Shown here: positions 38,262-40,062 of the stretch, piece by piece | Layout of the letters: each line of letters starts with the position of its first letter | Position numbering within the stretch: position 1 is the first letter of the stretch | Assembly (NCBI GenBank): GCA_963749655.1 | Contig: CAVVOB010000038.1 | Location: 32,001 to 96,000 of the forward strand | Reading direction: 5' to 3' | Length of the DNA: 64,000 nucleotides | Source of the DNA: Nitrospirota bacterium | GTDB lineage: Bacteria > Nitrospirota > UBA9217 | Notes under the pieces: generated by a model | What the model was told of the DNA's origin: nothing | Database searches by the model: none | The model's input: only the letters and a program-made list of their open reading frames with translations | Program-made: the position numbers and the translations under genes

Positions 38262-38460
38262 ATCCCGCGCCTTGGCATCCCCCGACTCCTGCCGGGGGTG
38301 GAAAGCGCTCACTCGCGCGTGACACGAACGTGTCACGCATGCGCGAGTTCGCAGTTCCACCTGGCACTCCGTGCATCCGCACTCGTAAACGCCGGGTGCA
38401 GGCGGGAGGTCGCTACGATTTAGAGTCCCGACAGGTCGGGATGCTGGAGGGGGCTCCACT
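38262..38460. repeat. Structured modular repeat, family C, copy 2
   Basis: 38304-38358 is identical to 39345-39399; 38357-38413 is identical to 27293-27349. Confidence 0.88.
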
Positions 38461-38467
38461 TCAATCC

Positions 38468-39223
38468 TTATTCAGCGAAACCGAACAGCACGCTCTGAAT
38501 GATCTTCGTACCTTTGATCATCTGTCCCGCGGTTAAGTACACTCCTCGAATTCTATGAGTCCTTTTTCGGTGCTCTCTGGCATGTTCTTCCGACCGGAAG
38601 AAGACCGTCTCCTTTCAAAATGCGTTGATGATGCTCTCGTCCTGCAGGGTCAGAAGATCCACGTCCGGAATGAAGACCATAGGCGCCCGGCCCCCGTCCT
38701 TGACCGTGAAATTGAGATCGCTGTCGATCGTCAATTCCATCGGCTCCTTGCAGTGAGCGCATTCGGTGCGCACCGTGACGGTGATCGGCTGGTTTCGTAA
38801 GCGCCCTTGCACGAAGGGCGTTGCAAATGCATCCGCTGCTCAGGCCGCGTACACCTGCTCGCCGGTGCTGAAGGTAAGGTGATGGGGGGTCTTATCCACG
38901 GTGACCGGGTATGCCCAGGTAACGGCTCCCTCCTTGTTCCTGAACAGGAAGGTCATGTGTTTCTCCAGGTCTTCCAGGAGGCGCACGACCCGGTCAGGGG
39001 GCAGGGACAGTTTTTGCGAAATGAGCCCGGGGCTTAATGGCTTTCCCGTGCGCGGCAGCTCCGCAACCACGAGATGGTGCACACGGCGATGGTCCGTTGT
39101 CATGAAGCCCATGGCTGCCTCAAAGCGCATCTTCTGGCGAAGGAGCTTCTTTTCCGGGTCCACGAGAGCGGACGGGATACTCAGCATGTACTTCCATAAT
39201 CCAAGCATGATTCGGTTCTTCAT
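38468..39223 (-). CDS. merB: MerB-like organomercurial lyase, predicted selenoprotein with two Sec (UGA at 38840-38842 and 38615-38617); 251 aa
   Basis: One reading frame from ATG 39223 (RBS AAGGAGG) to TAA 38468 with two internal TGA: ...AYPVT...QVYAA-U-AADAF...TECAHC...IINAF-U-KETVFFRSEEHA... This matches the MerB motifs YAWCALD and AFCCHVHFFAS; SECIS-like hairpins follow both UGAs. Confidence 0.85.
38585..38614 (-). promoter_or_regulatory. Bacterial SECIS-like element for UGA 38615-38617
   Basis: mRNA UUCUUCC-GGUC-GGAAGAA: 7-bp stem; GGU loop begins at +20 after the UGA. Confidence 0.78.
38802..38839 (-). promoter_or_regulatory. Bacterial SECIS-like element for UGA 38840-38842
   Basis: mRNA CGCCCUU-CGUGC-AAGGGCG: 7-bp stem; loop begins at +27 after the UGA, with G at loop position 2 followed by U. 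Confidence 0.75.
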
Positions 39224-39303
39224 TTGTACCTCCTTTGTGCAATGCAATCACGAAACTCTAATATCGAAATTCTAAACAAGGACAACTGCATGAGTCAAAG
39301 GCA

Positions 39304-39452
39304 TCTCGCGCAAAGCCGCAAAGGGAATCCGGAATTGCCGTATGAGCGCTCACTCGCGCGTGACACGAACGTGTCACGCATGCGCGAGTTCGCAGTTCCG
39401 GGAGGTCGCGTTGTTCGAGGGAGCCTCCGGCTCCTGCCGGAGGGGGCTCCAC
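39304..39452. repeat. Family B half-element (39304-39323) plus family C copy 3 (internal module absent)
   Basis: TCTCGCGCAAAGCCGCAAAG is also at 49944-49963; 55-bp block identical to 38304-38358; ends GGAGGGGGCTCCACT like copy 2. Confidence 0.85.
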
Positions 39453-40007
39453 TCATCCTGTTTGAAAAACCTGCTTCTCCCACCCTCGCCGCGAATACTT
39501 CCTGATGAGCGCGATCTCCCGGGCGGGAATGCCGAGGGATTCGAGAAAGTCCTGGTGCGCGTCGGGGGCGAGCCTCTCGAATTCTGCGTGCCATTTGTTC
39601 CTGGCAGCCTCGTCCAGCCCCGCGGTCTCCAGCAGCTTTATCCAACTCTCCTTGTCCATGACCCTGATCCGTGACAGGGCGCGATCGCTCTTGAGCAGGG
39701 TCACGATGAAATGCTGCTGGGTCCGGAGCGCGCGGATCTCCCGGCTCAGCTCATCGAGCCGCTTCTCGAGGAGCGGGACGATGCCCCGGTTGCCCCTCGT
39801 TTTCATAATCCTGTTGATGTCCTCGAGGGAGAGCCCGGTCCGGCGAAAGGTGCAGATCTGTTCCAGCCTGAGGCGGTCCGCTTCGGTGTACGTACGATAA
39901 TTTGCATTGCTTCTACCGGATGGCGAAAAAAGGCCGATCGAGTCATAGTAGAGCAGCGTGCTTCGGGATAGTCCGAATTGTTTTGCCAGCCGGCCGATGG
40001 TATACAC
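39453..40007 (-). CDS. MerR-family transcriptional regulator
   Basis: YTIGRLAKQFGLSRSTLLYYDSIGL...NYRTY HTH; GTG start 40007 after GGAGG; C-terminal WHAEFE...HQDFLESLG domain. Confidence 0.92.
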   Translation of the reverse strand: MYTIGRLAKQFGLSRSTLLYYDSIGLFSPSGRSNANYRTYTEADRLRLEQICTFRRTGLSLEDINRIMKTRGNRGIVPLLEKRLDELSREIRALRTQQHFIVTLLKSDRALSRIRVMDKESWIKLLETAGLDEAARNKWHAEFERLAPDAHQDFLESLGIPAREIALIRKYSRRGWEKQVFQTG

Positions 40008-40031
40008 GGTTGCCTCCTGCACCTGGAGTCT

Positions 40032-40062
40032 AGCATAAACCATGAAGTAATAGACAGGTCAA
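40032..40062 (-). promoter_or_regulatory. MerR-type sigma70 promoter with 19-bp spacer
   Basis: TTGACC-tgtctattacttcatggtt(19)-TATGCT, with an imperfect ACC...GGT dyad over the spacer. Confidence 0.75.

What the first reader, a model, noticed from the sequence alone, without database searches (positions are those of the whole stretch)
38468..39223. Hidden MerB-like lyase with both catalytic cysteines recoded as selenocysteine
Seen: the ORF track splits this gene into 38840-39247 and 38615-38812 and misses the last part. It is a single frame from ATG 39223 to TAA 38468 with two in-frame TGA codons (codons 128 and 203): VYAA-U-AADAF and INAF-U-KETVFFRSEE. Each TGA is followed by its own 7-bp hairpin with a GU-containing loop starting at +27 and +20. 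Known: E. coli MerB uses Cys96 and Asp99 (YAWCALD) and Cys159 (AFCCHVHFF), and bacterial SECIS elements sit just 3' of the UGA with a G in the apical loop. Sec-containing MerB-like proteins have been reported, for example SaoL of the clostridial SAO system. Inference: this is a di-selenocysteine organometal lyase that keeps the Asp at +3 and stands alone, with no merA, merT or SAO genes in the window. Indel-type errors do not explain two stops at exactly the catalytic positions.
Basis: partly seen in the sequence, partly recalled or inferred. Interest (0 to 1): 0.93.

Follow-up and report, generated by a model that had tools for sequence, protein, structure and literature searches.

The report
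MerB-like lyase with two selenocysteines
This is a real gene for a mercury-lyase-like enzyme in which both reactive cysteines are replaced by selenocysteine, and it belongs to a large family in anaerobic bacteria that I could not find described.

Summary
Window 38468-39223 (-) is one 251-codon frame with in-frame TGA at codons 128 and 203. The product has the MerB domain (Pfam) and a MerB fold: the 11 Foldseek matches with E <= 0.001 are all MerB or MerB2. The two TGA align to MerB Cys96 and Cys159, and Asp99 is kept.

The TGA codons are not errors. All 84 of 84 homologous frames examined, from Nitrospirota, Desulfobacterota and other MAGs, have TGA at both sites. Each TGA is followed by a hairpin whose synonymous codons are frozen and which shows compensatory changes. 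The genome has selA, selB, selD and tRNA-Sec, and TGA is its usual stop.

The protein is not SaoL and not a canonical MerB, because it scores below both NCBIfam cut-offs. It has no CU motif. I found no SAO marker, MerA or MerT in the assembly. In 41 of 79 loci a MerR or MarR regulator gene lies directly upstream.

Most likely it is a Sec/Asp/Sec carbon-metal bond lyase. The substrate is unknown, and methylmercury is the leading guess. It is a new variant of a known kind.

The parts
38468..39223 (-). Complete coding frame of the di-selenocysteine MerB-like protein (251 codons plus a TAA stop)
38840..38842 (-). In-frame TGA, codon 128, read as Sec. It aligns to MerB Cys96.
   Evidence: TGA in 84 of 84 homologous frames.
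38802..38820 (-). SECIS-like hairpin 1: 7-bp stem CGCCCTT/AAGGGCG with loop CGUGC, lying inside the TPFVQGR codons
   Evidence: Codons are frozen: CCC 78/79, TTC 79/79, GTG 79/79, GGG 79/79.
38615..38617 (-). In-frame TGA, codon 203, read as Sec. It aligns to MerB Cys159.
   Evidence: TGA in 84 of 84 frames.
38580..38607 (-). SECIS-like hairpin 2: core stem TTCTTCC/GGAAGAA (38585-38602) with loop GGUC, extendable to 12 pairs, lying inside the VFF(R/W)SEEH codons
   Evidence: The loop-closing pair is UA in 65, CG in 9, UG in 3 and unpaired in 1 of 78 rows. TTC TTC and GAA are frozen in 79/79.
38831..38833 (-). Asp131 codon, the counterpart of MerB Asp99 (the proton donor)
   Evidence: alignment. 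Asp in 84 of 84 frames.
39229..39235 (-). AAGGAGG ribosome-binding site, 5 nt upstream of the ATG
   Evidence: Read directly
39269..39298 (-). Sigma-70-like promoter match (TTGACT, 18 nt, TAGAAT; 10 of 12) between the upstream repeat and the gene
   Evidence: This is a consensus match only.
39453..40043 (-). MerR-family regulator gene directly upstream on the same strand (196 aa, one Cys, no equivalog assignment)
   Evidence: A homologous regulator is upstream in 22 of 79 loci.

Best explanation
The gene encodes a 251-residue cytoplasmic enzyme with the fold of the organomercurial lyase MerB. Both active-site nucleophiles (MerB Cys96 and Cys159) are selenocysteine and the catalytic Asp is retained. 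Each UGA is decoded as Sec by SelB and tRNA-Sec, guided by its own hairpin placed in the coding sequence just downstream. By analogy with MerB, the two selenolates bind the metal atom of an organometal compound and the Asp protonates the carbon, which breaks the carbon-metal bond. The physiological substrate is not known. Methylmercury or another soft organometal(loid) is the leading candidate. Expression is probably controlled by the MerR-type (in other organisms MarR-type) regulator encoded directly upstream. Shown here: the frame, the fold, conservation of the two TGA and the Asp, the RNA-level constraint after each TGA, and the Sec machinery. Inferred: Sec insertion itself, lyase chemistry, the substrate and the regulation.
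For: The frame has two TGA. PF03243 MerB scores E 3.9e-16. The alignment to PDB MerB places U128 on C96, D131 on D99, C155 on C117 and U203 on C159. The AlphaFold2 model has pLDDT 82.5 and pTM 0.83. The 11 Foldseek PDB matches with E <= 0.001 are all MerB or MerB2, and the next match has E 0.28. TGA stands at both sites in 84 of 84 frames, which share 49-80% identity and come from several phyla. 7 of 7 strong matches in 401 genomes of the phylum have 2 TGA. Database gene calls stop exactly before site 1 (16 of 20 inspected; by my eye count about 90 of the 150 listed) or before site 2. Synonymous codons are frozen only under the two hairpins. The hairpins are paired in 93.6% and 89.5% of cells, against at most 58.8% and 61.8% when the partners are slid, and they show compensatory changes (5 and 10 cells). 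The genome has selA (518 bits), selB (367.5), selD (355.5, itself with 1 TGA) and tRNA-Sec (62.8), all over their cut-offs. The selD hairpin in the same genome also has a GGUC apex. TGA is a normal stop here: 30 of 43 long frames in the window end in TGA and 4 of 4 neighbouring genes do. TGA is also the terminal stop of 39 of 78 family genes.
Against: There is no direct evidence of Sec insertion, of expression or of activity. The single-sequence folding energies of both hairpins are ordinary (z -0.81 and -0.18). The outermost pair of hairpin 1 is unpaired in 26 of 76 rows. No MerA is present to take up Hg(II) (best 406 bits, below the cut-off of 454). A bis-selenolate should hold Hg(II) very tightly (established chemistry, my inference), so turnover with mercury is questionable. 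The upstream MerR-type protein has only one Cys, so by my recollection of the MerR metal site it is not a mercury-sensing MerR. Carriage of the gene is not associated with hgcA within the family: 4 of 7 carriers against 48 of 57 non-carriers. Some distant relatives have Ser, Glu or Gly at site 1, and one 48%-identical database protein reads Gly and Leu at the two sites (P0016).
Confidence: 0.8

Rival explanations
1. The protein is a genuine di-Sec protein but not a lyase. The Sec pair would act as a very high-affinity binding or hand-over site for Hg(II), another soft metal or selenium, or as a diselenide redox centre.
For: A bis-selenolate should bind soft metals extremely tightly (my inference). 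No MerA or MerT partner was found. Among the PDB matches are a D99S MerB mutant (5c0t) and MerB2 (5c17). The copper binding of the D99S mutant is recalled from the literature and was not read here.
Against: The proton-donor Asp is kept in 84 of 84 frames. A simple binding site would not need it. The whole MerB core is conserved.
Confidence: 0.15
2. The gene is a pseudogene, or the two stops are sequencing or assembly errors.
For: Standard gene calling splits the frame.
Against: TGA is at both sites in 84 of 84 independent assemblies. There are no frameshifts. Amino-acid conservation continues after each stop. The codons of the hairpins are frozen.
Confidence: 0.01
3. TGA is read as Trp or Gly under a different genetic code, as the W in metagenome gene calls suggests.
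For: 25 of 28 homologues in alignment A1 show W at site 1, and 24 of 28 show W at site 2.
Against: TGA ends 30 of 43 long frames in the window and 4 of 4 neighbouring genes. It is the terminal stop of 39 of 78 family genes. No TGG occurs at either site in 84 frames. The W calls come from 0.9-1.6 kb contigs, where a gene caller can pick a TGA=Trp model; that explanation is my inference. The genome has the full Sec machinery.
Confidence: 0.01
4. Termination at the first UGA is the main outcome. The 127-residue N-terminal winged-helix-like piece would be the functional product, and read-through would be conditional on selenium supply.
For: Residues 48-88 give a weak MarR_2 match (E 0.22). The secondary Foldseek matches are winged-helix regulators (E about 0.3).
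Against: The downstream 124 codons are as conserved as the upstream ones, including a second TGA with its own constrained hairpin.
Confidence: 0.03

Closest known systems
SaoL, the MerB-like organometallic lyase of the SAO system (NCBIfam NF040728; Haft and Gwadz, bioRxiv 10.1101/2022.07.06.499078, passages read)
   Same: It has the MerB fold. It is a selenoprotein truncated in databases at UGA. It has Sec at the position of MerB Cys159 and keeps the Asp. It occurs in anaerobes.
   Different: SaoL has one Sec, in a CU dipeptide, and keeps Cys at the first site. It lies in a nine-gene SAO locus. The window protein has Sec at both sites and AFU instead of CU. It scores 38.1 bits against the SaoL cut-off of 140. 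It has an extra N-terminal region of about 40 residues. No SaoP or SaoC was found in the genome.
MerB organomercurial lyase (E. coli plasmid R831b; PDB 3f0o, 3f0p, 1s6l)
   Same: The fold matches (TM-score 0.63-0.78 normalised to the target). The Cys96/Asp99/Cys159 geometry positions and Cys117 align. The Pfam domain is over its cut-off.
   Different: Sequence identity is 20-22%. The protein is below both NCBIfam MerB cut-offs (49.4 against 193 and 42.3 against 200). Both nucleophiles are Sec. There is no second Cys after site 2. There is no mer operon: no MerA over the cut-off and no MerT.
All-Cys MerB-like paralogue (about 256 aa) in related Nitrospirota genomes
   Same: It belongs to the same superfamily. 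It has the YALCATDA motif, with Cys and Asp at the first site, in 13 of 13 loci. It occurs in the same genus and family as the window's genome.
   Different: It has no TGA. It matches the family profile only at E 7e-19 to 7e-11. It was not found in the window's genome, where one search found one match only.

Membership tests
MerB superfamily (Pfam PF03243) | Domain match over Pfam's gathering score | tested here: met
   59.6 bits against a cut-off of 27, residues 109-236
MerB superfamily (Pfam PF03243) | MerB three-dimensional fold | tested here: met
   The AF2 model has pLDDT 82.5. All 11 Foldseek PDB matches with E <= 0.001 are MerB or MerB2.
Canonical organomercurial lyase MerB (NCBIfam NF009710, NF033555) | Score over the equivalog cut-off | tested here: not met
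   49.4 against 193 and 42.3 against 200
Canonical organomercurial lyase MerB (NCBIfam NF009710, NF033555) | Cys96 / Asp99 / Cys159 catalytic residues | tested here: inconclusive
   The positions align, but they are Sec / Asp / Sec. The chemistry is analogous, not identical.
Canonical organomercurial lyase MerB (NCBIfam NF009710, NF033555) | mer operon context (merA, merT/P, Hg-sensing merR) | tested here: not met
   The best MerA match is 406 bits, below the cut-off of 454. No MerT was found. The neighbouring MerR-type protein has one Cys and no equivalog match. The genome is 86.6% complete.
Canonical organomercurial lyase MerB (NCBIfam NF009710, NF033555) | Protonolysis of the C-Hg bond | not testable with these tools
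   This needs an enzyme assay.
SaoL (NCBIfam NF040728) | Score over the equivalog cut-off | tested here: not met
   38.1 against 140
SaoL (NCBIfam NF040728) | CU dipeptide at the second site, Cys at the first | tested here: not met
   The window has AFU at the second site and U at the first. The SaoL motif is taken from passages of the preprint.
SaoL (NCBIfam NF040728) | SAO gene neighbourhood | tested here: not met
   No SaoP and no SaoC match in the genome. The SaoC search rang in no control genome, so it is weak. The neighbours are MerR and SulP genes.
Bacterial selenoprotein | In-frame UGA conserved among homologues, with Cys in other homologues at the same position | tested here: met
   84 of 84 frames have TGA at both sites. 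MerB and the all-Cys paralogues have Cys. Forms with Cys at site 1 that end just before site 2 also occur.
Bacterial selenoprotein | SECIS hairpin just 3' of the UGA, with G/U in the apical loop | tested here: met
   The loops are CGUGC and GGUC, starting 27 and 20 nt after the UGA. They show frozen codons and compensatory changes. bSECISearch was not available. Single-sequence energies are unremarkable.
Bacterial selenoprotein | selA, selB, selC and selD in the genome | tested here: met
   all over the curated cut-offs
Bacterial selenoprotein | Selenium in the protein | not testable with these tools
   This needs 75Se labelling or mass spectrometry.

The most novel reading that the evidence does not exclude
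This would be the window's copy of a large, undescribed family of bis-selenocysteine MerB-fold enzymes. At least 317 loci were found among species-representative genomes, and all of the best 80 are MAGs. On this reading the family is the mer-operon-independent demethylase of methylmercury, or of another natural organometal(loid), in anaerobic mercury-methylating guilds (Nitrospirota, Syntrophales, Desulfomonilaceae, Desulfobacterales). Two selenolates in place of two thiolates would let it capture substrate at environmental trace concentrations.
Probability: 0.25. Interest if true: 0.9.

Novelty: new variant of a known kind. Interest (0 to 1): 0.75.

Why it matters
MerB is the only well-understood enzyme that breaks the carbon-mercury bond. 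The one selenoprotein relative in print, SaoL, swaps only one of the two nucleophiles. A widespread clade in which both nucleophiles are selenocysteine, each with its own decoding hairpin, raises three points.

First, it is a rare case of a two-Sec bacterial enzyme. A 2026 review counts 119 selenoprotein families, nearly all with one Sec, and lists only SaoL as MerB-like (PMC13188914, passages).

Second, the family is invisible to standard annotation. Database entries are fragments cut at the UGA or carry W at the two sites.

Third, it sits in lineages that dominate mercury methylation: hgcA is over its cut-off in 52 of 64 genomes of the window's family. How methylmercury is degraded in anoxic habitats without the mer operon is, to my recollection, an open question, and this gene is a concrete candidate to test.

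Tried and rejected
Flanking repeats. A perfect 55-nt direct repeat flanks the gene (38304-38358 and 39345-39399), which suggested a mobile cassette. Its core occurs 31 times in the genome with at most 3 mismatches, against 0 for the reversed control. It is therefore a genome-wide REP-like element and not specific to this gene.

hgcA link. hgcA is over its cut-off in 52 of 64 genomes of the family. Among the 7 carriers of the di-Sec gene it is present in 4. The 3 carriers without it are 83-87% complete, and the window's genome is one of them. It is present in 48 of 57 non-carriers. There is no association.

Conserved operon partners. Clustering the flanking ORFs of 79 loci gave only MerR-type (22) and MarR-type (19) upstream regulators, a 4HBT thioesterase in 10 loci, and scattered unrelated genes.

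Rfam. Only two chance-level matches were returned (E 0.51 and 7.1).

Single-sequence folding. The energies are not significant.

Sequencing runs. No RNA holder was listed, and the three DNA runs hold only small shares of the sampled words (0.04-0.08). Laying them showed relatives' contigs. No difference at the six TGA bases appears among the rows shown, but 134 rows were not shown, so I draw no conclusion.

Model geometry. The model's coordinates are not readable in the script box, so I could not measure the distances between Sec128, Asp131 and Sec203.

Literature. Searches for 'selenocysteine' + 'MerB', 'selenoprotein' + 'alkylmercury lyase', 'organomercurial lyase' + 'selenocysteine' and 'Novel selenoprotein neighborhoods' found only SaoL. 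I read passages, not whole texts, of:
- 10.1101/2022.07.06.499078;
- PMC13188914;
- PMC9312934;
- PMC2398784;
- PMC13326102;
- PMC5029168.
The last three do not mention MerB. Haft and Tolstoy 2025 (mSystems) is not in the library and I did not read it. Supplements are closed and could list this family.

Full report
OBSERVATION. On the minus strand, ATG 39223 opens a frame that runs to TAA 38468. It holds 251 codons and two in-frame TGA, at codon 128 (38842-38840) and codon 203 (38617-38615). Standard ORF listing breaks it into 38840-39247 and 38615-38812. An AAGGAGG site lies 5 nt before the ATG. A sigma-70-like match (10 of 12) lies at 39298-39269.

WHAT THE PROTEIN IS. The read-through matches Pfam MerB (PF03243) at E 3.9e-16, 59.6 bits against a cut-off of 27. 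A phmmer search of PDB sequences finds only MerB entries with E < 0.01. The printed alignment puts U128 on the Cys of YAWCALD, D131 on its Asp, C155 on the next conserved Cys, and U203 on the first Cys of SFCC. An AlphaFold2 model built on a 76-row alignment has mean pLDDT 82.5 and pTM 0.83, and only residues 1-21 fall below 50. Foldseek against the PDB gives 11 matches with E <= 0.001. All are MerB or MerB2 chains; the best is 3f2h_B at 3.2e-12, and TM-scores normalised to the target are 0.63-0.79. The next match has E 0.28. The protein scores below the NCBIfam cut-offs for MerB (49.4 against 193; 42.3 against 200) and for SaoL (38.1 against 140). It is therefore a member of the MerB superfamily but of neither named family.

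ARE THE TWO TGA REAL AND CONSERVED? A word-indexed protein search returned 109 relatives. I aligned 28 of them with the query. At site 1, 25 show W, 2 show C and 1 shows G. At site 2, 24 show W, 1 shows L and 3 end just before it. Of 20 shorter hits aligned, 16 end exactly after the residues preceding site 1. To see the DNA I searched genomes.
- In 401 genomes of the phylum, the 7 strong matches (E <= 2.5e-80) each contain 2 TGA, and 13 weak matches (E 7e-19 to 7e-11) contain none.
- A scan of species-representative genomes found 317 encoding loci, of which the best 80 were kept.
- From 86 loci plus the window I extracted the frame through a WAYPV anchor. Three loci lacked the anchor and were dropped.
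- TGA stands at both columns in 84 of 84 frames. Asp131 is Asp in 84 of 84. C155 is Cys in 84 of 84. C158 is Cys in 74, Ser in 9 and Thr in 1.
- Five of the loci are the same records reached by two tools, which leaves 79 distinct sequences. They share 50-80% identity with the window protein.

The W in metagenome calls is therefore almost certainly TGA translated under a TGA=Trp model on short contigs. That is my inference; I did not fetch those contigs. An exhaustive profile search of 1.84 billion representatives found 989 relatives (E <= 0.001). Among the best 150, by my count by eye about 90 end at profile position 125, the residue before site 1. Others span 128-200, which is the stretch between the sites, or end at 200.

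RNA-LEVEL EVIDENCE FOR TWO SECIS ELEMENTS. After TGA-1 lies CGCCCUU-CGUGC-AAGGGCG (38820-38802). After TGA-2 lies UUCUUCC-GGUC-GGAAGAA (38602-38585), extendable to 12 pairs.

Counted on 76 distinct rows, hairpin 1 is paired in 93.6% of cells, against at most 58.8% when the 3' partners are slid. Pair 30-46 is G-C in 63 rows, U-A in 5 and unpaired in 8. The outermost pair is unpaired in 26.

Counted on 78 distinct rows, hairpin 2 is paired in 89.5% of cells, against at most 61.8% when slid. The loop-closing pair is U-A in 65, C-G in 9, U-G in 3 and unpaired in 1. The C-G form couples a Trp-to-Arg replacement (TGG to CGG) with a silent TCA-to-TCG change. This is what a structural constraint predicts.

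The strongest signal is at synonymous sites. Conserved Pro, Gly, Val and Phe codons elsewhere in the gene have 0.9-1.9 bits of codon entropy. Under the hairpins the counts are Pro136 CCC 78/79, Phe137 TTC 79/79, Val138 GTG 79/79, Gly140 GGG 79/79, Phe208 and Phe209 TTC 79/79, and Glu212 GAA 79/79.

Against this, the window's own hairpins fold no better than shuffles (z -0.81 and -0.18), and Rfam gives nothing useful.

DECODING MACHINERY AND CODE. The genome (39 contigs, 86.6% complete) has four components, all over the curated cut-offs:
- selA, C39:55645-56742, 518 bits;
- selB next to it, C39:56936-58822, 367.5 bits;
- tRNA-Sec, C39:62953-63047, 62.8 bits;
- selD, 355.5 bits, itself with one in-frame TGA.

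The hairpin downstream of the selD TGA also has a GGUC apex. TGA is the usual stop: it ends 30 of 43 frames of at least 300 codons in the window and all 4 Pfam-supported neighbouring genes. It is the terminal stop in 39 of 78 family genes. So TGA is not reassigned, and its reading depends on context.

CONTEXT. The upstream gene on the same strand, 39453-40043, encodes a MerR-family protein. It has a single Cys and no equivalog match. Downstream on the other strand is a SulP/STAS permease gene. Across 79 loci, a MerR-type gene precedes the gene in 22, a MarR-type gene in 19, and neither in 38. No transporter or reductase is conserved next to it. The genome shows no MerA over its cut-off, and no MerT, SaoP or SaoC.

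The gene is patchy. It is found in 7 of 64 genomes of the family and in 0 of the 14 other genomes of the genus. Its nearest relatives (78-80% identity) lie in other genera. By their titles, the record names of the best 80 loci are about 64 Desulfobacterota or 'delta' MAGs and 5 Nitrospirota, plus single Abyssobacteria, Omnitrophota, Bacteroidota, Anaerolineaceae and others. All 80 are MAGs (my reading of the titles).

MECHANISM. Shown: the MerB fold, the Sec/Asp/Sec positions, two constrained hairpins and the Sec machinery. Inferred: SelB inserts Sec at both UGA; the two selenolates ligate the metal of an organometal substrate; Asp131 protonates the leaving carbon, as in MerB.

The substrate is open. 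Selenolates should raise affinity for soft metals, but they should also slow release of Hg(II), and no MerA is present. So either a thiol or selenol acceptor removes the metal, or the natural substrate is not mercury, or the protein acts nearly stoichiometrically. That last case is the binding-site rival, to which I give 0.15. hgcA is nearly universal in the window's family (52 of 64), but it does not track the gene: 4 of 7 carriers against 48 of 57 non-carriers.

COMPARISON AND NOVELTY. SaoL is the only MerB-like selenoprotein I found in print. It has one Sec in a CU motif at the second site, Cys at the first, and a nine-gene locus (passages). It is the only MerB-like row in the tables of the 2022 and 2026 reviews (passages). 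The window's family differs in five ways:
- Sec at both sites;
- no CU motif;
- its own N-terminal extension;
- no SAO locus;
- scores below the SaoL cut-off.

More distant relatives show other states. Some have Cys at site 1 and end before site 2 (6 of 18). Others have Ser at site 1 with Cys at site 2 (2), Glu at site 1 with Leu at site 2 (1 clear case), or Gly at site 1 with a gap at site 2 and a Cys seven residues later (5). Related Nitrospirota carry an all-Cys paralogue. I rate the finding a new variant of a known kind. The claim that it is not in print rests on the four searches named above and on passages only. Supplements were closed, and one relevant paper (Haft and Tolstoy 2025) was not available.

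VERDICT. Confidence is about 0.9 that this is a genuine two-Sec selenoprotein gene of the MerB superfamily, about 0.6 that it is a carbon-metal lyase, and about 0.25 that methylmercury is its natural substrate.

Noticed in passing
window 38304-38358 and 39345-39399; genome-wide: A perfect 55-nt direct repeat with a palindromic core (GTGACACG-AA-CGTGTCAC) flanks the gene. The 32-nt core occurs 31 times in the genome with at most 3 mismatches, against 0 for the reversed control. It is a REP-like intergenic element.
   Followed up: partly
G000:C21:1685-2611 (locus L126): The genome's selD has one in-frame TGA (context SSCAG-U-AAKF), followed by a hairpin with a GGUC apex. SelD is itself a selenoprotein here.
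   Followed up: partly
proteins P0048, P0049, P0053, P0056, P0057, P0072, P0077, P0080, P0089: 9 of 109 homologues carry a precomputed twin-arginine signal domain (PF10518; for example RRTFLKIAG) in front of the conserved N-terminus. Some family members may therefore be exported to the periplasm.
   Followed up: no
genomes of the window's family: hgcA, the mercury-methylation corrinoid protein gene, is over its cut-off in 52 of 64 genomes of the family and in 13 of 14 other genomes of the genus. It was not found in the window's 86.6%-complete genome.
   Followed up: partly
loci L017-L029: Related Nitrospirota carry an all-Cys MerB-like paralogue of about 256 aa (YALCATDA ... FCSxEH) without TGA. 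It was not found in the window's genome.
   Followed up: partly
protein P0016: One full-length homologue, 48% identical and from a Logan assembly, reads Gly at site 1 and Leu at site 2. No code I know gives both, so it may be a true non-Sec variant or an error.
   Followed up: no
proteins P0002-P0031: Full-length metagenome gene calls of this family show W at both Sec sites. Most likely TGA was translated under a TGA=Trp model on short contigs, which would be a systematic annotation artefact for multi-Sec genes.
   Followed up: partly
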